Source: a virus
Taxonomy: Duplodnaviria; Caudoviricetes
Reading direction: 5' to 3' (one strand)
Length of the DNA: 34,388 nucleotides
IMG/VR virus record: IMGVR_UViG_3300043036_000465
Location: 1 to 34,388 of that record
Positions 4,201-29,055 of the stretch are shown in pieces. The notes under the pieces are model-generated. The model saw only the letters and a program-made list of their open reading frames with translations. It made no database searches and was not told where the DNA came from. Numbering within the stretch: the stretch's first letter is position 1; each line of letters opens with the position of its first letter. The position numbers and the translations under genes are program-made.

Positions 4201-4502
4201 GCCCCCACCACCCGCAGGTTCGGCTGTTCGGCTTCAAGCGGATCGCCCGAAGCCCGGCCGCCGTGCGCCAGAGGCTGCAGGCTCAATTCAATGCTGCCCA
4301 GATAACCAAAGCAATCGGCCACCAGCTGTTCCCAATCGCGGCCCAGATAATGCACCGGCCGCCACTGCAGCAGCTTGCGCAGATCACCCACATCGCAAAG
4401 CGTGGGTTTCGCCGCCAGCGCCGCCAGCGCGCTACGCATCGCGCGCGCCCAACCCGGCACCGTAACCGGCACCTGCGTGCCATCGCTTAACAGCACGTTC
4501 AT
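4197..4502 (-). CDS. Hypothetical protein (MNVLLSDG..., 101 aa)
   Basis: Start moved to the ATG at 4502, which overlaps the thioredoxin stop codon (ATGA). Confidence 0.6.
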   Translation of the reverse strand: MNVLLSDGTQVPVTVPGWARAMRSALAALAAKPTLCDVGDLRKLLQWRPVHYLGRDWEQLVADCFGYLGSIELSLQPLAHGGRASGDPLEAEQPNLRVVGA

Positions 4503-4846
4503 GCCGCCACCTTTGCCGGGTTGATCACGCCTGAAATCCATTCCGCCCACTGCCCGGCGCTGGCGGCGCCCAGGCGCACGCCGGCCAGCCCGCCATCGCG
4601 GTACAGGGCCAGCGTGGGCACGCCCTGCACATTGGCCGCCAGCGCCATGCCTTGGCATTCATCCAGTTCTGCCAGCAACACCGGCACGCCGACGATCGTC
4701 CTAGCCAGCGCCACCGCCTCGCCTTCGGCCTTGCGGCACGGCGGGCACCAGCTGGCGGTAAAAATCACCACCACCGGGCCGGCAATGCCAATAGCAAGCG
4801 GCAGCGTGCGATCATCCACCTGGCGCAGTGATGCCGGACGGTTCAT
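4499..4846 (-). CDS. Thioredoxin family protein
   Basis: FTASWCPPC active-site motif, VQGVPTL cis-Pro loop, 115 aa. Confidence 0.88.
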   Translation of the reverse strand: MNRPASLRQVDDRTLPLAIGIAGPVVVIFTASWCPPCRKAEGEAVALARTIVGVPVLLAELDECQGMALAANVQGVPTLALYRDGGLAGVRLGAASAGQWAEWISGVINPAKVAA

Positions 4847-5409: not shown

Positions 5410-5894
5410 AACACACCTTTTTCAAGTTGATCTGCAGCCGCACGGATTGCTGCCGTTTTGGCCATCACATTGTCGCAATCGACAATGATGCGGCGGTGAT
5501 TGCTGGCACCGCCGGCCATCACCGCCAGCCCAGCCAATAATGCCGCCGATTCCTTTGAAAGTTCGGCGATAGCCGACAGCGGATCGATGCCGCCCAACTG
5601 TTCCACCGGCACCAACGCGAAGCCCGCTTCAGCCGCCAGATGCGCCAGCAGCTGCACCGCACCGGCATGGCCACGTGTCACCGCCATAAGATCGCGCAGA
5701 GCATCCACCGGCAGCCAGCGATCCGGCTGATTAATGCAGCCTGCAGCTGCGAGTTGCGATTTACCGACACGGCACAACCGGGCCGCCATTTCGCAGCCGT
5801 CTGCCGCCTCCACCAGCGCCCGCGTGGCCCGCTTTAATGCCTGATCCCGCGGCTGCATCGCCGCACTATTCGGCATGCTCATTTCCGCATCCAT
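5406..5894 (-). CDS. CII-like phage regulatory protein
   Basis: Lies downstream of cro; N-terminal HTH-like AARLCRVGKSQL, then LPVDALRDL and LAAEAGFALVP, then a helical tail; exact start uncertain (5894, 5882 or 5876). Confidence 0.65.
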   Translation of the reverse strand: MDAEMSMPNSAAMQPRDQALKRATRALVEAADGCEMAARLCRVGKSQLAAAGCINQPDRWLPVDALRDLMAVTRGHAGAVQLLAHLAAEAGFALVPVEQLGGIDPLSAIAELSKESAALLAGLAVMAGGASNHRRIIVDCDNVMAKTAAIRAAADQLEKGVL

Positions 5895-6193
5895 GCGGAA
5901 AATTCACTGATCTTTCCGCATGACATTACAGGCAATGAACGCGAAATCTGCCGGCCATGATGCACACCACCCCGAAGCAACAGATCGAACCGGCAATCGG
6001 TGGGCGCGGCCACTTCCAATGCCGAACCCACCGACGCCCCTGCAGCCGCCAAGGTCGCGGCGTGGCCAGCTGGCAGAAAAATTTGGGTGGCGGGCGCCAG
6101 GGAGAATTCCACACGCCCGCCACCCGCCGCGCCGGGGGCCTCAAATGGGGGGGTAAAGCCCCCGCGCGGAAACTGGATAATCTGGGCACTCAC
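5879..6193 (-). CDS. Possible hypothetical protein overlapping the twin-hairpin element
   Basis: GTG start overlaps the cro stop (GTGA), but the ORF is low-complexity and spans strong hairpins; may be non-coding. Confidence 0.3.
   Translation of the reverse strand: MSAQIIQFPRGGFTPPFEAPGAAGGGRVEFSLAPATQIFLPAGHAATLAAAGASVGSALEVAAPTDCRFDLLLRGGVHHGRQISRSLPVMSCGKISEFSAWMRK
6085..6169 (-). promoter_or_regulatory. Twin stem-loop RNA element after cro
   Basis: Stem 6127-6139/6158-6169 (one bulge) and perfect 12-bp stem 6085-6096/6114-6125, separated by a single nucleotide (6126). Confidence 0.6.
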
Positions 6194-6417
6194 GCTGCAG
6201 CCCTCGTCACATCATCGATACCCAGCCCAACCAGGAAATCCGCCGGCAGCGGGTGGCCCAGTTCATCGGCCAACGCCTTAACACGCAGCAGAAAGGCCGC
6301 CGGCACACCGCGGCGCCGCCAATTGTTGGCGCGAGTTGGGGACACCTGCAGGCGGGTGCACAACGTGCGCGGGCCAATGGCATCCAAAACCCGGTGATGG
6401 CTATGCAGGTCGTTCAT
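6190..6417 (-). CDS. Cro-like small HTH protein
   Basis: 75 aa from the ATG at 6417; HTH LCTRLQVSPTRANNWRRRGVP; divergent from the repressor. Confidence 0.8.
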   Translation of the reverse strand: MNDLHSHHRVLDAIGPRTLCTRLQVSPTRANNWRRRGVPAAFLLRVKALADELGHPLPADFLVGLGIDDVTRAAA

Positions 6418-6424
6418 GCCCACA

Positions 6425-6453
6425 AATATCCACGCAGCGTGGTTTTTTGTCAA
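6425..6453 (-). promoter_or_regulatory. Leftward early promoter with embedded operator CCAC-N5-GTGG
   Basis: TTGACA (6453-6448), 17 nt, GATATT (6430-6425); palindrome ccacgcagcgtgg at 6430-6442. Confidence 0.8.
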
Positions 6454-6504
6454 CCCGGCATCGCAAATGGCGCACACTGCCGCAATTGCGTTAGGCGTTG
6501 ACGC

Positions 6505-6912
6505 GTGGATATCGCATCACGCCTTCGTTCTTTGCTAAAATCCAGCGGCCTATCGCAGGCTGAAGTGGCGCGGCGCGCTGGCATCAGCGCCACTAGGTTT
6601 AACAATTATGTTTCGGGCGATCGCATACCGGATAACCAGATGCTGGATCGAATCGCAGCGATCCTGGGCACCGATGCCGATCAACTGAACGGCGCGACAG
6701 AAAGCCTTTCCACCGTACTGGCTGGCATCCTTACAACGCTGTTTCGCTTGAATGGACTGCCCCCGGAACGGGGCGCCTTAATGGCTGAAGTTGCTGTCGA
6801 AGCGCTTCGAGCAATTCGATCTCTGCCAGACGATGGCGATGCTGAATTGCGCTCTCGCCTGGCGGCGCAGATTGCCTGGCAGCAGCACACCGGGCCAAAG
6901 CCCCAGCTATAA
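6505..6912 (+). CDS. CI-like repressor, XRE-family HTH, without an S24 peptidase domain
   Basis: LSQAEVARRAGISATRFNNYVSGDRIP HTH; divergent from cro; the C-terminus is short and helical. Confidence 0.85.
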   Translation: MDIASRLRSLLKSSGLSQAEVARRAGISATRFNNYVSGDRIPDNQMLDRIAAILGTDADQLNGATESLSTVLAGILTTLFRLNGLPPERGALMAEVAVEALRAIRSLPDDGDAELRSRLAAQIAWQQHTGPKPQL

Positions 6913-6973
6913 CCTCATCATAGTTCATGGGCACGGCACACCCTTGCATCAGCTTCGTCACGGCATAGAACAT
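6731..6973 (-). CDS. Candidate SOS-induced ORF or transcript antisense to the 3' half of cI
   Basis: 80-codon ORF with alternative starts at 6949 and 6928; the first ATG lies inside a LexA box; coding status unproven. Confidence 0.3.
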   Translation of the reverse strand: MFYAVTKLMQGCAVPMNYDEVIAGALARCAAARQSAPPGESAIQHRHRLAEIELLEALRQQLQPLRRPVPGAVHSSETAL

Positions 6974-6982
6974 TATGCGAAC
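6968..6982. promoter_or_regulatory. Alphaproteobacterial LexA (SOS) box
   Basis: GAAC-attatgc-GAAC, a perfect GAAC-N7-GAAC; on the minus strand the spacer contains CATAAT (-10-like). Confidence 0.75.
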
Positions 6983-7043
6983 AAAGCTGTGTAGGATAGC
7001 GCCTTAATGCTTGCTTTGCTGACAGCGTAACGCTGATCAATTT

Positions 7044-7058
7044 GTTCCGCATTCGTTC
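7044..7058. promoter_or_regulatory. Second alphaproteobacterial LexA (SOS) box, opposite orientation
   Basis: GTTC-cgcattc-GTTC, a perfect GTTC-N7-GTTC. Confidence 0.75.
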
Positions 7059-7119
7059 AAATTCGTAAAATTTACAGTTCACACATACCCGGCCCGCGCC
7101 GCGCGCCGGGCCAGCATCT

Positions 7120-7171
7120 TCACTTATCGTGGATGTCAGTGGTTGACAACAATCCACTGTGCGTGGATTAT
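7120..7171 (+). promoter_or_regulatory. Rightward early promoter with two operators
   Basis: TTGACA (7143-7148), 17 nt, GATTAT (7166-7171); operator aatccac-tgtgc-gtggatt (7151-7169); degenerate operator tcac-ttatc-gtgg (7120-7132); closely mirrors the leftward promoter. Confidence 0.8.
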
Positions 7172-7200
7172 GCGCCCTCCACAACGGAAGGGCTGATGCC

Positions 7201-7617
7201 ATGTCATCTGTGTTTGAATTTTTCTCTGGCGGCGCCGGGCTGGCGCTGGGCTTTGTCGGCGGCGTTGGCGCGATGATGCTGCGCCGCGACACCCGCCGCG
7301 ATGCGCTGGCCACCGCGCTAGATCTGCAGCGCAACTATGCTGCGCAGCTGCGCGCCAGCCTGCTGGCCCACAGGAACCAGCTGCTGAACTATGGCGCCGG
7401 CAGCCTGCCCGCCATCCCCAACGCCCCGCCCGCGCGCAACGCCGCCGGATGGACGGCTGCCAGCCTTGATCGCATTGCGGATGCGCTTGCCCCGCCAACG
7501 GCCACCGCCGGTGATTTTCTGGGCCTGCCGCCTGATCTGGCCGCAGCCACGATGCGCAAACGCGCCCGAATGGCAGCCGGCAACATTGAGCCCGCCGGCC
7601 ACCAGGCCGCCGCCTGA
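7201..7617 (+). CDS. Hypothetical protein with an N-terminal membrane anchor
   Basis: ATG at 7201 with ggaagg upstream; hydrophobic GAGLALGFVGGVGAMML; first gene after the rightward promoter. Confidence 0.7.
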   Translation: MSSVFEFFSGGAGLALGFVGGVGAMMLRRDTRRDALATALDLQRNYAAQLRASLLAHRNQLLNYGAGSLPAIPNAPPARNAAGWTAASLDRIADALAPPTATAGDFLGLPPDLAAATMRKRARMAAGNIEPAGHQAAA

Positions 7618-7628
7618 TTTCAGTTGAA

Positions 7629-7682
7629 GCGGCGGGACAACCCCGCCGCCGCCGGGGGTGGTTTCTATCTTACACCCCCGGC
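7629..7682 (+). promoter_or_regulatory. Twin stem-loop RNA element after the first rightward early gene
   Basis: 8-bp stem 7629-7636/7642-7649, a single C at 7650, then a 10-bp stem 7651-7660/7673-7682. Confidence 0.6.
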
Positions 7683-7713
7683 ACCCTTTCCCTTATCATC
7701 ACGGGCCATCTTG

Positions 7714-7962
7714 ATGACTGATCAACGCCAGGGCGTCACTAAAACCCAGCACAAGATGCTGGATCTGTTGGATGCCCGCACCCCGCTGTGGAACATGGGC
7801 AGGATCGACGAACATGCTGCGCGCCTTGATCGCGAAGCATGCCGCGATCGGCCCGATTTTCTGATGATGGCCGCGCTGGCCCTGCATCTGGCTGAACGCG
7901 CTGCGGTGGCCGCCACCACCTGCAAAGTAGTGGGCGCCAATATCGATCAGGTGCAGCCGTGA
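7714..7962 (+). CDS. Hypothetical protein (MTDQRQG..., 82 aa)
   Basis: ATG at 7714 after the hairpins; stop overlaps the next start (GTGA). Confidence 0.6.
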   Translation: MTDQRQGVTKTQHKMLDLLDARTPLWNMGRIDEHAARLDREACRDRPDFLMMAALALHLAERAAVAATTCKVVGANIDQVQP

Positions 7963-8180: not shown

Positions 8181-8827
8181 ACCTGTTCCCCAATCTGCCG
8201 GCCGCCCTTAGCCCTGCCACGATCGGGAACACCCGCCTTTCGCCGGAGCAAGCCGCCCAGCGCGGCGCCGGTAAATCTGCTTTCGCCAAGGATGCGCTGA
8301 ACCGATATGACACGATCGATCCCCGCGCCGTGGCCGCCCTGCTGCCGCACTTGGCCCCGCGCACCCGGTTCATCGAACCCTGCGCGGGCAAGGGCGATCT
8401 GGTGCGCCAACTGCAGGCCGCCGGGCACCTGTGCGTGTCGGCTTTCGATATCGCCCCGCGCGCCGAAGGCATTGGCACAGTGGACGCCGCCACCTGGGCC
8501 AACACGGCACAGTCACGCGATGCCATCATCATCACCAATCCGCCGTTCGATTGGGCGATGCTGCACCCGCTGCTGGAAAATTGGCGGGATCAGGTGCTGA
8601 TCAGCTGGCTGCTGCTGCCGGCAGCGTTCATGCACACCCACAGCAATGGCCGCGGCGAAGTCATCCAGCGCACCCGCAAGATCGTGAGCATCGGCCGGCT
8701 GAAATGGGTGATTCCCTCTGATAACGACGATACCAAAGATTACTGCTGGTATCAGATCGGCAGCACTCCCGCGCCCGGCAACACTCCCGCCTTCCACGGC
8801 CGGGCTTGGCAAAAGGTGCAGCCATGA
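8177..8827 (+). CDS. Orphan DNA amino (probably N6-adenine) methyltransferase
   Basis: Motif I FIEPCAGKGDL followed by motif IV IITNPPF; start at the ATGA overlap at 8177. Confidence 0.85.
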   Translation: MNLFPNLPAALSPATIGNTRLSPEQAAQRGAGKSAFAKDALNRYDTIDPRAVAALLPHLAPRTRFIEPCAGKGDLVRQLQAAGHLCVSAFDIAPRAEGIGTVDAATWANTAQSRDAIIITNPPFDWAMLHPLLENWRDQVLISWLLLPAAFMHTHSNGRGEVIQRTRKIVSIGRLKWVIPSDNDDTKDYCWYQIGSTPAPGNTPAFHGRAWQKVQP

Positions 8828-9150
8828 TCATCGATGCGCTTGATTTCCTGATTCTGATCAGCGGCTGCACCTTTGCCGGTGGCATGCTGGCGTTCAATGC
8901 CGGCATCAGCAAGGGTTGCGATATCAGCCAGGCATCAGTGGAACGCGCGGCGAACGCTTTTGCCCGCGACAACGGCGCCACCATCGCCCTGGGCAAGGCC
9001 ATGATCGATGTGCTGAAGCGCCACGCCGCCGCCCGCGGCTTTGCCGGCAGCGAACTGGAAATCACCACCCAGATGAACTGGGATCACGCCGGCCGCACCT
9101 ACACATTCACCCTGAAAGAGGCCGATCACCTGGAAGGCCGGGCCAACTGA
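8824..9150 (+). CDS. Hypothetical protein with an N-terminal hydrophobic segment
   Basis: ATGA overlap at 8824; LDFLILISGCTFAGGMLAF hydrophobic stretch. Confidence 0.6.
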   Translation: MIIDALDFLILISGCTFAGGMLAFNAGISKGCDISQASVERAANAFARDNGATIALGKAMIDVLKRHAAARGFAGSELEITTQMNWDHAGRTYTFTLKEADHLEGRAN

Positions 9151-14164: not shown

Positions 14165-14548
14165 TCACAGCGGCGGCAGCCCATCTTTGATTTGCTGGGC
14201 CTGGGCAGTTGTAAGTATGGCAATGGCTTCGGCACGATCGATACCGGCCCGCACCATGGCATCATCCAGATTGATCGGGCCTTCCCACGCTTCGAACAGG
14301 CTGCGGGCGCGGGCCATCTGCACGTCGGTGGATTGCTTCACCGCCAGATCGGCTTCGGGTGGCCACAGCAGCACATATTGAAACTTGCTGATCCAGCGCG
14401 TGGCGTCCACAAACGCCTGGCGCGGCACATCCCAGCGGGTTTGCAGCGGCACTTGGCGCAGGGTTTCGCCTTCGCCTGCGGTGGGCGCTTCGGCCACCGG
14501 CCCGGCCACGATCACACCGGTTTGATCATCGGTCACGATCCACATCAC
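14165..14548 (-). CDS. Hypothetical protein; possible tail-fibre assembly or accessory protein
   Basis: 127 aa, overlaps the tail fibre stop codon. Confidence 0.55.
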   Translation of the reverse strand: MMWIVTDDQTGVIVAGPVAEAPTAGEGETLRQVPLQTRWDVPRQAFVDATRWISKFQYVLLWPPEADLAVKQSTDVQMARARSLFEAWEGPINLDDAMVRAGIDRAEAIAILTTAQAQQIKDGLPPL

Positions 14549-17067
14549 AGCACCCGGACAAACGATGGCGGCACGTTAACCGAACGCGACTGCCGAACCG
14601 AAACGGCGCGGATATCGAACAGGCGATCGGCGCCGCCGTTGGTGAAGGTGGCGCCGGTGATCACCAGTTCCACCGGCTCTGTGGTGGGCTGGCTGTCAGT
14701 GACGGTGCCACTTGTCATCGCCGCCCAACTGCCCGCGCCGGCCACGCTAATTTGCAGTTCCAGGCTACACACGCCGGCCACCCCCCCCGTGTTCAGGTAC
14801 AATTCGGCAGCAGCCGTCACCGTTTGGCCATTCAACAGGCGGATCGGATCAAGCTGTGCCGCGCCTGTTGAAAGCGATTTTATCGGCGGCGCTGAAACGC
14901 CGGTGGGCCCTTGCGCGCCCACGTTGGCCAACAGAGCCCAGTTTGCCCCCGGTGGGCCATTTGCGCCCGTGCTGGTGTGAGCAATGATCACCGTGAAGCT
15001 GCTGCCGTCGCGCGTGACGATATCGCCCAGCGCATAGACCACCGATGACGCGGACCATGCGCCGCGTTGCAGTGCGGGCAGCACAGCGCGCGTCACATCA
15101 GCATTATCAGCAGGGCGGCCCGCGCCGGTGACATAAGGCCATTGCGCGGTGGTCGCGGCGCTGGCCACCGCTGGTGCAATTGCAGCTGAATCGGTATAGC
15201 CACCGACAGGGGTTCCAGACGGCGCGCCGACTGTGGCCGTGCCAAGATACACCATGCTGATTTCGTGGATGCGGATTGTTTCAGGGATCGCGCCGTCAAA
15301 ATCGATCCGCACCCTTCGCACAATTTCATCGCGCCAGGCGTTGCCGCCGGCGGTAAGGCTGTGCATGTCCAGCAACACTTCAAACGGCGTGCCGTTCGTG
15401 GGGTGGTTTGCCGGAATCCAATCACCGTTTTTTGATCGTGTTCCATCGATCGGAGCATAGGCGTTAGTGCTGAAATAGACTTCCACGTTGCGCATGCCCG
15501 CAGACAGCGTTGCAGTAGCTGACAAGATCAGCCGCAGATAGCGCCCAACCCGTCCATCAACACCCAGCATGTCAGGCGAAAAGAAAGCACAATCACTTGA
15601 GTTTGCGGTAAATGTCGCAAACTGTTCGCCGGCCGTTACAGTTGGAGCCGCGCCAGTAAAGGTGACGCCAGACCAGCCATTCAGCGACTGATTGTTAAAC
15701 GCCCATTGCCGCACTGCCACACGTTGCGCCGTGTTACTAATCTCGCCATCTGTCAGGGTGCGGCCGCCGCTGTCTTGCAGGTTTGTGCCCGCAACTGCAC
15801 CGACTGTCGCGCCCGCCTGCGCAGGCTGCAGGCCGGAAACGAGCGTGCCATCGGGATAGCTGATCTGATCGGCCACGCCGATCACCCCATATTCGCCCTC
15901 GCTGTGCACGCGCCAGGTGGGTTCGGCGGCGATGGCCTGGCGCCAGAACGGCGCGCTGGTTTCCAGCAGCTGCACATCGGCCACCGCCGGCGTGCGGCTG
16001 CCATCGGCGGCCAGCGTGAAGGCCGGGCTGCCGATCCCGGCGCGGGCCACGAACAATTTGCCATCAAAGCCCACGCCTGCCGCCGCGTTGCAGCTGGCGG
16101 CGATCTGCTGGATGATATCGCGCGCCGTTGTCTGTTCGCCCAGGTACAGCGAAAGGTTGCCGCCGCCCGGCAACGTGGCCGCCCAAGTGTCCAGCGCGCC
16201 CAGGCTGGTGCTGTTGATCTGGCCGGCGGTGGCGCCGGCGATTTCGGCGATGCGCTTGATGATGGCGCCGGGCCGGCGCACCCATCCGGCGGCGCTGCTG
16301 TTGTCGCCTTCCACCCAAAAGCTGGGCACGGCCGCCGGCGCGCCAAAGCGCACCAGGCCCAGCGCCAGGCAGGTGCGCAGGCTGCCGGCCGCGATCGTGG
16401 CGCCGGCAAGCGCTGCATAGCTGGCGTCATTGCCGGTAAACGCCCCGCCGCCAAAGCGCGCCAGGCGATCCAGCACCTGCGGCACCGCCTGCACGCTGCC
16501 GGCCCCACCGTGCAGCTGCCAGATGTTCAAGGCGCTGTTGATCAGCACACCAGGGACAAACTGCGGCGCGCCGAACGCCAGCGGCTTGGGCGCGCCTTTA
16601 AGCGCGGCCAGGCCTTCTGCATTGCCAGTGCCGGCATAGATGGCCAGCAGGGGCTTATCCAGCCAGCGATCATCCGGGCGCAGGCCAATACGCAGGCGGC
16701 CGTTGCTGCCGCTGGCCGGGCGGGTCAGGCCAGCGAAAACCTGCACATATTCACCCCACGAACCGCCCAGCGGGCCCTGCCACACAGTGACCGCGCGTTC
16801 CCCCCAGCTGTAGCGGGGCGCATTGGAAAGGATCGATGCCGATCGGGTGGTGGTGATTTCCAGATCGCCAATGCCAATGCCGATCTGCCCGGAGAAATCC
16901 CCATCGAACAGATCAAGCCTGCGCTGCGGCGCGCGGGCCAGGACCGGCCACCAGCGCTGCCCGTTCAGGCTGGTGACGCGGTGATCATCCACGTTGCAGG
17001 CGCGCAGCACCACCGCCGCGCCGGCCACCGGGTCCCAAGCGCTGATTTCAATTAGGGTTACAGCCAT
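14545..17067 (-). CDS. Tail tip or central fibre protein (host specificity) with carbohydrate-binding modules
   Basis: N-terminal hub-like region (KGAPKPLAFG), beta-rich middle domain, CBM5/12-like RGAWS...YALGDIVT...W segment; follows the tape measure and tip genes. Confidence 0.8.
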   Translation of the reverse strand: MAVTLIEISAWDPVAGAAVVLRACNVDDHRVTSLNGQRWWPVLARAPQRRLDLFDGDFSGQIGIGIGDLEITTTRSASILSNAPRYSWGERAVTVWQGPLGGSWGEYVQVFAGLTRPASGSNGRLRIGLRPDDRWLDKPLLAIYAGTGNAEGLAALKGAPKPLAFGAPQFVPGVLINSALNIWQLHGGAGSVQAVPQVLDRLARFGGGAFTGNDASYAALAGATIAAGSLRTCLALGLVRFGAPAAVPSFWVEGDNSSAAGWVRRPGAIIKRIAEIAGATAGQINSTSLGALDTWAATLPGGGNLSLYLGEQTTARDIIQQIAASCNAAAGVGFDGKLFVARAGIGSPAFTLAADGSRTPAVADVQLLETSAPFWRQAIAAEPTWRVHSEGEYGVIGVADQISYPDGTLVSGLQPAQAGATVGAVAGTNLQDSGGRTLTDGEISNTAQRVAVRQWAFNNQSLNGWSGVTFTGAAPTVTAGEQFATFTANSSDCAFFSPDMLGVDGRVGRYLRLILSATATLSAGMRNVEVYFSTNAYAPIDGTRSKNGDWIPANHPTNGTPFEVLLDMHSLTAGGNAWRDEIVRRVRIDFDGAIPETIRIHEISMVYLGTATVGAPSGTPVGGYTDSAAIAPAVASAATTAQWPYVTGAGRPADNADVTRAVLPALQRGAWSASSVVYALGDIVTRDGSSFTVIIAHTSTGANGPPGANWALLANVGAQGPTGVSAPPIKSLSTGAAQLDPIRLLNGQTVTAAAELYLNTGGVAGVCSLELQISVAGAGSWAAMTSGTVTDSQPTTEPVELVITGATFTNGGADRLFDIRAVSVRQSRSVNVPPSFVRVL

Positions 17068-27554: not shown

Positions 27555-29055
27555 TGGTGGCTGTTCCTTCTGTTGGCGGCGCGGCAGCTGCGGTGCGGGC
27601 CAGCGCGGCGTTAAGGGCCATGGTGTCTACGCCCAGTTCGGCCTGGATTAGTTCGCGATCGGCCTTGATGCGCTCCACCAGTTCCGGCAGCGTCCACCCG
27701 CGTTCTTCCGCCAGTTCCGACAGGGTGCGGCTGAACATATCCATTTCGAGTTTGGCCGCGCGGGCATCCTTTTCTGGATCCGGGCTGGTGATCGGGCGCG
27801 GCGGCGTCCAGCGGATGCTGGCTGCAGCCGCGCCCGGCAAGGATTGCGCCATAGCCCCATCGATAAAACCGCGGGCAAGCATGCGCCCCATGCGGGGGAT
27901 CAGCACCTGCCACTGTTGCTGTTCGGCGAACTGGCCGAAATCAAACGAGCCCACGCGGTAACTGGAATAATTCACGCCCGACATATCGCCCGACATATGT
28001 TCGTACATTACGCCCACGCCGGCGGCGGCGAGGAACCCCATCTGCCGGATAAACGGGGACATATCGCCCACCGGCGCCACCGGGCCGGGCTGGAAGCTTT
28101 CGCCCGGCTTTGTGTAATGGATCATGCCCGGCACAAATTCCGTGACGCGGTTGCCAGCTTCATCCGGTGCGGATTTTACGCCCAGATCAAGCCCGCCCTG
28201 GCCGGCCGGTTCCGGCGATTGCACAAAGCCCACCAGGCAGGCTTCGATATTCTTGCGCATCGCCTCCCGATCGAGATAGGCGGCGAGTTCATTAAGCGGC
28301 ATGATAGCCGCGGCAAAGATCGAAACACCGCGATCTTGGCCGGGGCGCAGCACATCGTACACCTGCACCACATCGCCGATCGGCACCCGAACCGATTCCC
28401 AGGTGCCGCGCAGGTGGCGGGAAATATTGGCCGGGTGATCAGGCAGCAACCAAAGCGCCACCTTGCGGCCATCGGCATCATATTCGATTCCGCGCTCAAT
28501 CCAGCTACCGGTGGAACCGTAGAGGCTGGATTTCGCAAAATCGATGTGATCGATTTCCAGCACCTGAAACTGATAGGCCGGCCGCCCTGTGCTGAAATCG
28601 GCGCGATAGCGGCGCAGCAGCACATCCCCATCGCTATACAGCGCGCGGGCCAAAGTGAGTTGCAGGCCGTTCAGATCCTGTTCGCCCATCCAATCGGCGT
28701 TATCGACAAAGCGTGCATATTCGCTGCGCAGGCGGCGGTTTGCTGGCTTGCCATCCAGGCCCATCACACTCCCGGTTATGCCCGTGCCCACCGTGCTGCT
28801 CACCAGCTTGGCGTGGGCCTTGCGTGCATAGCCGTTATTCTGCAGCAGATTCCGGGTCAGGGTGCGGATACGCTGCGCGCCCTGTTCGGCTTCGCCACGC
28901 GGGCCGGAATCGGTGCGGCGCCAGTTTTCAATACGGCGGTTGCCGGGCCGCGCGGCTTCGTAGCTGCGCACATTGTCCAGCGCCAGGCGCGCCCGCGCGC
29001 GGGCCAGCCCGGCACTGGGCGACATGGCGGCGATGATTTGATCCAGCAGGTTCAT
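27547..29055 (-). CDS. Portal protein, lambda family
   Basis: RSYEAA, DGDVL, GIEYD, RPGQDRG, VNYSSYR and DPEKD motifs. Confidence 0.93.
   Translation of the reverse strand: MNLLDQIIAAMSPSAGLARARARLALDNVRSYEAARPGNRRIENWRRTDSGPRGEAEQGAQRIRTLTRNLLQNNGYARKAHAKLVSSTVGTGITGSVMGLDGKPANRRLRSEYARFVDNADWMGEQDLNGLQLTLARALYSDGDVLLRRYRADFSTGRPAYQFQVLEIDHIDFAKSSLYGSTGSWIERGIEYDADGRKVALWLLPDHPANISRHLRGTWESVRVPIGDVVQVYDVLRPGQDRGVSIFAAAIMPLNELAAYLDREAMRKNIEACLVGFVQSPEPAGQGGLDLGVKSAPDEAGNRVTEFVPGMIHYTKPGESFQPGPVAPVGDMSPFIRQMGFLAAAGVGVMYEHMSGDMSGVNYSSYRVGSFDFGQFAEQQQWQVLIPRMGRMLARGFIDGAMAQSLPGAAAASIRWTPPRPITSPDPEKDARAAKLEMDMFSRTLSELAEERGWTLPELVERIKADRELIQAELGVDTMALNAALARTAAAAPPTEGTATNA

What the first reader, a model, noticed from the sequence alone, without database searches (positions are those of the whole stretch)
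6505..7058. Non-cleavable repressor with two LexA boxes placed to drive an anti-cI transcript: candidate new SOS induction switch
Seen in sequence: the 135-aa XRE repressor has no S24 autopeptidase domain. In the AT-rich gap after its stop are two perfect alphaproteobacterial LexA boxes in opposite orientation (GAAC-N7-GAAC at 6968-6982; GTTC-N7-GTTC at 7044-7058). On the minus strand the first reads GTTC-gCATAAT-GTTC, so it covers a -10-like hexamer pointing into the 3' end of cI. An 80-codon minus ORF (6973-6731; MNYDEVIAGALARC...LAEIELLEALRQQL) overlaps cI in antisense. Established: phages with non-cleavable repressors (186 Tum, N15 AntC, Gifsy) use LexA-controlled antirepressors encoded as separate genes. 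Inference: here SOS may shut off cI through an antisense RNA, convergent transcription or an antirepressor overprinted on cI. I see no other antirepressor gene in the window, though the genome is incomplete. The -35 for this promoter is poor.
Basis: partly seen in the sequence, partly recalled or inferred. Interest (0 to 1): 0.82.

Follow-up and report, generated by a model that had tools for sequence, protein, structure and literature searches.

The report
SOS gene overprinted on phage repressor
A small unannotated gene is written backwards on top of a temperate phage's repressor gene, is conserved in distant relatives behind a DNA-damage (LexA-type) operator, and likely makes the protein that switches the repressor off and wakes the phage.

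Summary
The core observation holds. CI (6505-6912) is an HTH plus a three-helix C-terminal domain with no S24 protease. A perfect GTTC-N7-GTTC box covers a predicted leftward promoter aimed into cI.

The antisense ORF is most likely 65 codons (6928-6731), not 80, with 182 of 198 nt inside cI. In 13 of 13 loci of this CI family (median 48% identity) the same frame starts just past the cI stop and runs into the C-terminal domain. Antisense stops number 1 in 780 codons there against 31 in 761 over the HTH half. The product is conserved far beyond a synonymous-codon null (z 11-16; HTH control 1-3). A box with at most one mismatch precedes it in 12 of 13 loci. No conserved RNA structure was found. 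The second box is broken in the closest relative and is not part of the conserved switch.

Best reading: a LexA-repressed helical-hairpin antirepressor (about 65%; function untested). The design has a precedent in Bacillus phi106 AimX/AimC, and this scan noted similar layouts in 8 other genomes (unchecked notes). New here are the protein family and the near-total overprinting.

The parts
6190..6417 (-). cro-like gene, 75 aa, divergent from cI
   Evidence: PHROG 8008 DNA-binding protein, E 7.5e-5; a like ORF with the WRxxG[IV]P motif lies divergent from cI in 12 of 13 loci, the 13th contig being cut there
6425..6453 (-). PR-like promoter (TTGACA-17-GATATT) with palindrome CCACGCAGCGTGG at 6430-6442, inferred CI operator
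   Evidence: the operator role is inference
6505..6912 (+). cI-like repressor, 135 aa: HTH (about 1-62) plus three-helix C-terminal domain (68-129); no S24 domain
   Evidence: (mean pLDDT 92.9); family alignment of 58 proteins
6731..6928 (-). overprinted antisense gene, 65 aa, predicted helical hairpin (helices 3-19 and 27-47) plus low-confidence tail; candidate antirepressor; 182 of 198 nt lie inside cI
6941..6945 (-). weak Shine-Dalgarno-like AAGGG, 12 nt before ATG 6928
   Evidence: sequence; duplex energy -3.9 kcal/mol, the weakest of the 13 loci (others -5.5 to -11.4; background median -2.2, 10th percentile -5.7)
6968..6982 (-). LexA box 1 (GTTC-N7-GTTC on the minus strand), covering the predicted -10 TAATGT at 6975-6970
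   Evidence: half-sites unchanged and spacer changed twice in the close relative; counterpart with at most one mismatch in 12 of 13 loci
6991..6998 (-). conserved TTTCCTAC-type element (here TATCCTAC); inferred -35 region of the antisense promoter
   Evidence: replaced by TTGTTA in the same register in L004 and L164; no listed change in the close relative
7044..7058 (+). LexA-like box 2; not conserved, probably not part of the switch
7143..7171 (+). PL-like promoter (TTGACA-17-GATTAT) with palindrome CCACTGTGCGTGG at 7154-7166, inferred CI operator; heads the operon that ends in the integrase
   Evidence: like promoter-plus-palindrome units in 12 of 13 loci

Best explanation
A conserved 65-codon gene lies on the opposite strand of the repressor's C-terminal domain behind a LexA-type box, and its product is likely the antirepressor that induces this prophage after DNA damage. 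Steps: (1) Shown: CI has no self-cleavage domain, and palindromes overlap the two early promoters. Inferred: CI represses both. (2) Shown: box, promoter-like register, start codon and open frame are conserved. Inferred from the known alphaproteobacterial motif: host LexA sits over the -10 or start site and keeps the gene off in the lysogen. (3) Inferred: RecA-driven LexA cleavage releases the promoter, and a two-helix protein is made. (4) Inferred by analogy with AimX and SinI: the protein binds its own CI, most likely the helical C-terminal oligomerisation domain, and frees PR and PL. Convergent transcription through cI may help but is not what the sequence selection reflects. Because both proteins are read from the same base pairs, they cannot be separated by recombination.
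For: Same antisense frame, starting 10-34 nt past the cI stop, in 13 of 13 distinct loci; these are about 10 independent lineages, CI identity 37-98%, median 48%. Antisense stops: 1 in 780 codons over the last 60 cI codons (the window's own terminator; 8.8-23.1 expected under four codon-usage models) against 31 in 761 over the HTH half (20.1-33.7 expected). The other two antisense phases carry 28 and 10 stops over the same stretch in 10 loci. Antisense core identity is 0.365 against 0.23-0.24 under stop-free synonymous resampling (z 11-14, 0 of 200 simulations reach it; HTH control z 1.8-2.7); with one of each close pair dropped, z 15-16 and HTH control z about 1. GC3 falls from 0.69 to 0.53, and A/T-ending codons are nearly fixed (E99 GAA 11 of 11, P108 CCA 11 of 12, S117 TCT 10 of 11, Q122 CAA 11 of 13). 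At cI columns 131 and 99 the antisense residue is Leu in 13 of 13 loci, by 3 different codons, while the CI residue varies. Stop at the HTH/C-domain boundary in 12 of 13 loci. A box with at most one mismatch lies 14-48 nt before the start in 12 of 13 loci (8 perfect), against 1.25% of random 60-nt windows. In the close relative there are 0 listed changes in 57 nt spanning the cI stop, start codon and leader, against 18 in 86 nt beyond the promoter (Fisher p 5e-5). A 14th locus (L216), found by the promoter pattern rather than by CI, also has the frame open to the same end. No S24 domain in 5 of 5 records, 3 of them rated complete. No antirepressor family among 80 of the 110 predicted ORFs of two complete relatives (structural genes left out). 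Precedent: phi106 AimX.
Against: Nothing here measures function; the antirepressor role rests on context and analogy. The product matches no Pfam, PHROG, PDB or viral-fold family, so homology gives no function. L005 lacks both the box and the promoter register at the usual place. The L216 product does not match the family profile at E 0.01. The last third of the ORF (over CI 66-85) is not clearly conserved beyond the null (z 0.4-2.0). In the close relative 8 of 9 listed changes in the overlap are silent in CI and change the antisense protein, so CI is the more constrained partner at short range. The window's ribosome-binding site is weak. The promoter pattern and the start codons were picked from these same loci. 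The null treats loci as independent; the HTH half is the control for that. The host is not identified, so the LexA specificity is inferred from the motif and from alphaproteobacterial best hits.
Confidence: 0.65

Rival explanations
1. The gene is real and SOS-controlled, but its product acts on something other than CI (host LexA or RecA, RNA polymerase, cell division, a co-resident prophage's repressor), and CI is inactivated another way.
For: Conservation shows a protein, not its target. Small phage proteins with other targets exist, for example GIL01 gp7 on LexA (passage seen, PMC11323111). Many ORFs in the complete relatives have no family, and G004 and G005 each have a further perfect box before small ORFs near the integrase.
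Against: The box before this ORF is the only one found at a shared position across the family. CI has no S24 domain in any of 5 records. Staying overprinted on the CI C-terminal domain across about 10 lineages is most easily explained by a cognate pair.
Confidence: 0.18
2. The SOS-induced convergent transcript is the effector (antisense pairing or transcriptional interference lowers CI), and the protein is an accessory.
For: A leftward transcript from about 6963 would run through cI. The window's ribosome-binding site is weak. The low-confidence tail stays open without being conserved.
Against: Selection tracks antisense amino acids, with the same residue reached by different codons. The consensus fold has 9 pairs, none compensatory, at -3.7 kcal/mol. 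In phi106 and phiW23 the antisense RNA without the ORF was inactive (bioRxiv 10.1101/2025.11.23.689978, passages).
Confidence: 0.12
3. The ORF is a shadow of CI's own sequence constraints, and the box serves something else (rightward transcription, or nothing).
For: Some antisense residues and the terminal stop are partly forced by CI residues. Open antisense frames are common in this GC-rich DNA (12 of 78 blocks).
Against: The nulls hold CI's protein fixed and still fall 10-16 SD short. Start codons, purine-rich leaders and an acidic N-terminus lie outside cI. The box has one orientation and a fixed place relative to the leftward promoter elements in 12 of 13 loci.
Confidence: 0.05

Closest known systems
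AimX/AimC of Bacillus phage phi106 and other extended arbitrium systems (bioRxiv 10.1101/2025.11.23.689978; abstract, passages and sections 9-11 read; supplements closed)
   Same: Short repressor that does not respond to RecA itself, next to a cro-like gene; LexA site directly before a small ORF that runs antisense into the repressor's 3' end; small, mostly helical product (29-80 aa).
   Different: phi106 AimX overlaps aimC by only 30 bp, here 182-218 nt (87-96% of the gene) across the C-terminal domain. No arbitrium genes adjoin the locus here (PL follows within about 100-230 nt). The LexA motif is the alphaproteobacterial direct repeat. No sequence family is shared. The paper says other AimX candidates 'sometimes' overlap aimC; the extent is in supplements I could not see.
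LexA-controlled antirepressors: coliphage 186 Tum, SPC32H Ant, Gifsy GfoA/GftA, N15 AntC (titles seen in reference lists for Tum, SPC32H and Gifsy; details and AntC recalled)
   Same: Host LexA controls a phage antirepressor gene, which gives SOS induction without repressor self-cleavage.
   Different: As recalled, these are free-standing genes away from the repressor gene; this one is overprinted on it. No profile match to any PHROG family for four members tested.
Qtip and smORF small antirepressors of VP882-like phages (review passages, PMC11323111)
   Same: About 80-aa or smaller proteins with little mutual homology that inactivate their cognate CI.
   Different: They are switched on by a phage-encoded transcription factor, not by LexA release; here no such factor gene lies in the gap.
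SinI/SinR mimicry (as described in the AimX paper's discussion)
   Same: A small helical protein against an XRE repressor with a helical oligomerisation tail; the antisense product and the CI tail are both predicted helix-loop-helix with a Pro-containing loop.
   Different: Profile-profile similarity between the product and the CI tail is not significant (probability 0.3%, E 0.21), so mimicry by homology is not supported.

Membership tests
LexA-controlled phage antirepressor systems | Master repressor lacks the RecA-stimulated S24 autoprotease | tested here: met
   (0 of 5 records; the control search rings in 9 of 14 reference genomes)
LexA-controlled phage antirepressor systems | Host LexA-type operator over the promoter of a small gene | tested here: met
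   sequence level only: 12 of 13 loci, background 1.25%; motif GTTC-N7-GTTC given for Alphaproteobacteria in PMC8565304 (passage)
LexA-controlled phage antirepressor systems | The small gene is a real protein-coding gene | tested here: met
   stop depletion and amino-acid conservation beyond synonymous nulls; translation not measured
LexA-controlled phage antirepressor systems | LexA binds, and transcription rises after DNA damage | not testable with these tools
   needs EMSA and RNA data
LexA-controlled phage antirepressor systems | The product binds and inactivates the cognate repressor | not testable with these tools
   needs reporter and binding assays
AimX (extended arbitrium module) | aimR-aimP directly upstream of the small ORF | tested here: not met
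   only the box, a short gap and PL lie upstream; no such genes among the ORFs beyond
AimX (extended arbitrium module) | Small ORF convergent with and overlapping the repressor's 3' end, cro-like gene on the other side | tested here: met
Named antirepressor protein families held in Pfam, PHROGs or PDB | Sequence or fold similarity | tested here: not met
   PHROGs 0 families for 4 members; Pfam none significant for 13 members; PDB sequences best E 0.4; viral folds best E 1.9 on a 69.7-pLDDT model
SinI-like mimics | Homology to the repressor's own oligomerisation domain | tested here: inconclusive
   18-column match, probability 0.3%, E 0.21

The most novel reading that the evidence does not exclude
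The antirepressor binds the very domain it is overprinted on. Lock and key are then written on the two strands of the same roughly 150 base pairs, every mutation touches both partners, and a repressor-antirepressor pair evolves new specificity as one indivisible unit. With the similar layouts this scan noted in other phages, hidden antisense antirepressors would be a widespread, repeatedly invented SOS switch that annotation misses.
Probability: 0.35. Interest if true: 0.82.

Novelty: new variant of a known kind. Interest (0 to 1): 0.62.

Why it matters
Many temperate phages have short repressors that cannot self-cleave and no annotated antirepressor, so how they sense DNA damage is open. This gives a concrete, testable answer for one apparently alphaproteobacterial phage family, and shows why the gene is missed: gene callers suppress it under cI (the window's ORF is not in the 15-billion-protein collection; one relative is). 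It is also a clean natural case of long antisense dual coding in which both proteins are under purifying selection. If they bind each other, it is a model for co-evolution of an interface under a shared nucleotide constraint.

Tried and rejected
Complex prediction of CI (58-row alignment) with antisense residues 1-52 (13 rows): no answer, score 0.02 against a mark of 0.32, controls not folded; no evidence either way.

Expression: no RNA holder listed among 4 runs; no evidence either way.

Cultured host or isolate phage: not found. The family was in 0 of 69 genome-collection pattern hits, 0 of 153 stretches and 0 of 401 sampled alphaproteobacterial genomes with the C-domain profile. A first sample gave 2 of 201 matches over the HTH part only. 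Phage and plasmid collections gave no match or partial, HTH-centred matches only. An attempt to get a sphingomonad genome as a search centre failed.

TTTCCTAC plus box as a general host SOS promoter: 0 of 151 genomes; in viral contigs 1 of 120 hits was a family member, the rest showed no link to it (scan cut at 16 of 64 parts).

Conserved RNA structure: rejected. Two-box model: rejected. 80-codon ORF and a 44-codon ORF starting inside box 2: rejected, the first because it starts inside the operator, the second because relatives show no counterpart. ESM Atlas: no usable hit for the product or the CI tail. Foldseek of CI against PDB: best DdrO and AimC (9iaq) at E 2e-3 to 8e-3, none at 1e-3.

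Synonymous-codon identity alone is not decisive: C-domain 0.45 against 0.32-0.35 under CI codon usage, but 0.50 under the usage of the window's other genes.

Literature: 7 answered searches listed no paper on this family or on an antirepressor mostly embedded in its repressor gene. The library lacks most subscription papers, so this is not proof of absence.

Full report
CONTEXT. The window is a 34.4-kb virus record, 44% complete. It is a temperate tailed phage with terminase, portal, capsid, primase and tyrosine integrase. Its best terminase match is Sinorhizobium phage phi2LM21 (39%), and 14 of 15 integrase matches are alphaproteobacterial plasmids. The host genus was not identified. The immunity region is lambda-like: a CII-like gene (5894-5406), a cro-like gene (6417-6190), cI (6505-6912), then a 290-nt gap and an early operon ending in the integrase. 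The only two consensus promoters found in 5800-7800 point outward from cI, and each overlaps a CCAC-N-GTGG palindrome, which I infer to be the CI operator.

THE REPRESSOR. Pfam sees only the HTH. A search of 1.84 billion representatives gave full-length relatives at 32-52% identity; I aligned 58 proteins. They share a C-terminal domain ending RSRxAAQAAW and have no protease domain. The model (pLDDT 92.9) has three C-terminal helices. PF00717 is absent from 5 of 5 records, 3 of them rated complete.

RELATIVES WITH DNA. Scans of viral, genome and metagenome collections gave 185 loci. Of these, 20 matched the C-domain profile, and 13 remained after dropping 7 duplicates. They were selected on CI residues with third codon positions free, so the selection does not bias synonymous sites. 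CI identity is 37-98% (median 48%), with three close pairs, so about 10 independent lineages. A cro-like gene faces away from cI in 12 of 13.

THE HIDDEN GENE. In all 13 loci one antisense phase has an ATG, GTG or TTG 10-34 nt beyond the cI stop and stays open for 65-83 codons. In 12 it ends at the codon opposite CI residue 64, the HTH boundary; the window's copy ends 12 codons earlier. In this phase the second base of each antisense codon is the third base of a cI codon, so the test is direct. Stops number 1 in 780 codons over the C-domain against 31 in 761 over the HTH half; the expectation with CI's protein fixed is 8.8-23.1. The core of the product is 36.5% identical between loci against 23-24% under stop-free synonymous resampling (z 11-14; 0 of 200 simulations). 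The HTH control is near its null (z 1.8-2.7). On 10 loci z is 15-16. A/T-ending codons are almost fixed where the antisense residue is Leu, Glu or Gln, and GC3 drops from 0.69 to 0.53. At two columns Leu is kept in 13 of 13 loci by three codons while the CI residue changes, which points to protein-level selection. RNAalifold finds no compensatory pair. The model is a two-helix hairpin (3-19, 27-47; block pLDDT 71-82) with a low-confidence tail; the tail region is not clearly conserved. No family or fold match was found. One relative was called as a gene in public assemblies (P0173).

RESULTS AGAINST. In the closest relative (39 differences in 421 nt, 31 listed), 8 of 9 changes in the overlap are silent in CI and alter the small protein. 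The window's ribosome-binding site is the weakest of the set. L005 lacks the usual box and promoter. L216, a 14th locus found through the promoter pattern, has the frame open to the same end but its product misses the profile.

THE PROMOTER. On the minus strand 12 of 13 loci have a GTTC-N7-GTTC box with at most one mismatch 14-48 nt before the start; 8 are perfect, and the background is 1.25% of 60-nt windows. That motif is the alphaproteobacterial LexA site (PMC8565304, passage). Upstream lies TTCCTA (ATCCTA in the window, TTGTTA in L004 and L164), then 16-18 nt, then a hexamer starting TA, in 12 of 13 loci (pattern derived from these loci). In most relatives the box lies just downstream of that hexamer; in the window it covers it. 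Either place would repress. Box 2 loses a base in each half-site. Box 2 has a counterpart only in L005, so I leave it out of the switch.

MECHANISM. Shown: non-cleavable architecture, a conserved coding gene, a conserved operator and promoter-like layout. Inferred: LexA repression, SOS induction and action on CI. I put a real gene at about 0.93, LexA control at about 0.85, and protein antirepression of the cognate CI at about 0.65. No conventional antirepressor family was found among 80 of 110 predicted ORFs of two complete relatives, though many have no family. Rivals are another target (0.18), RNA or interference as the main effector (0.12) and a shadow ORF (0.05).

COMPARISON WITH WHAT IS KNOWN. 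LexA-controlled antirepressors are established (PMC9437464, passages). The nearest design is phi106 AimX: a LexA site, then a 29-aa ORF overlapping the repressor's end by 30 bp antisense. There the protein, not the RNA, was active; it formed a heterodimer with the repressor and was modelled on the C-terminal domain (bioRxiv 10.1101/2025.11.23.689978; abstract, passages, sections 9-11). Its supplements, which I could not see, may show longer overlaps. This system works like AimX/AimC without being a member: no arbitrium genes, a different LexA motif, no shared family, and 87-96% of the gene inside cI. Seven literature searches listed nothing on this family. This scan's own notes describe similar layouts in 8 other genomes, with no sequence look-alike to this one. 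Those notes are unchecked and are not counted as support; they suggest the design recurs.

VERDICT. A real, unannotated, dual-coded gene in the position of an SOS induction switch. New variant of a known kind; interest 0.62.

Noticed in passing
G004:C1:1840-1854 (+) and G005:C1:3075-3089 (+): Both complete relatives have a further perfect GTTC-N7-GTTC box just past the integrase, ahead of small ORFs (an HTH protein at L190:2097-2339; PHROG 8130-like at L193:3181-3636). Possibly other SOS-controlled genes near the attachment site.
   Followed up: no
window 7044-7113; L005 137 nt past the cI stop: Box 2 is followed by a GC-rich inverted repeat before PL, and L005, which lacks the usual box, has a like-oriented perfect box followed by a GC-rich hairpin (seen in sequence). 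It could be a lineage-specific second LexA input; it is broken in the window's closest relative.
   Followed up: partly
window 6991-6998 and relatives: TTTCCTAC is more exactly conserved than a non-consensus -35 usually is (exact in 9 of 13 loci); it may also be an activator site. Not found with a box in 151 sampled alphaproteobacterial genomes.
   Followed up: partly
alignment A1 (P0018-P0153): Many database entries of this CI family are 160-290 aa because of N-terminal extensions; these probably come from gene callers reading through the cro gene on the opposite strand (inference).
   Followed up: no
window 6490-6507: cI starts at GTG with no clear Shine-Dalgarno sequence; a leaderless transcript, as recalled for lambda PRM, is possible.
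   Followed up: no
L315:6107-7271 (NZ_CP155750.1, Sphingomonas parapaucimobilis): In an unrelated prophage-like region, an HTH repressor gene and a HIRAN-domain gene overlap tail to tail by 47 bp.
   Followed up: no
window 4499-4846 (-): A thioredoxin-domain gene sits in the early operon between the CII-like gene and the primase genes.
   Followed up: no
window 8941-8955 and 28669-28683: Two more exact GTTC-N7-GTTC matches lie inside coding sequence (ORF 8806-9150 and the portal gene); probably chance.
   Followed up: no
window 14545-17067 (-): An 840-aa protein in the tail region carries a CBM_5_12 carbohydrate-binding module.
   Followed up: no
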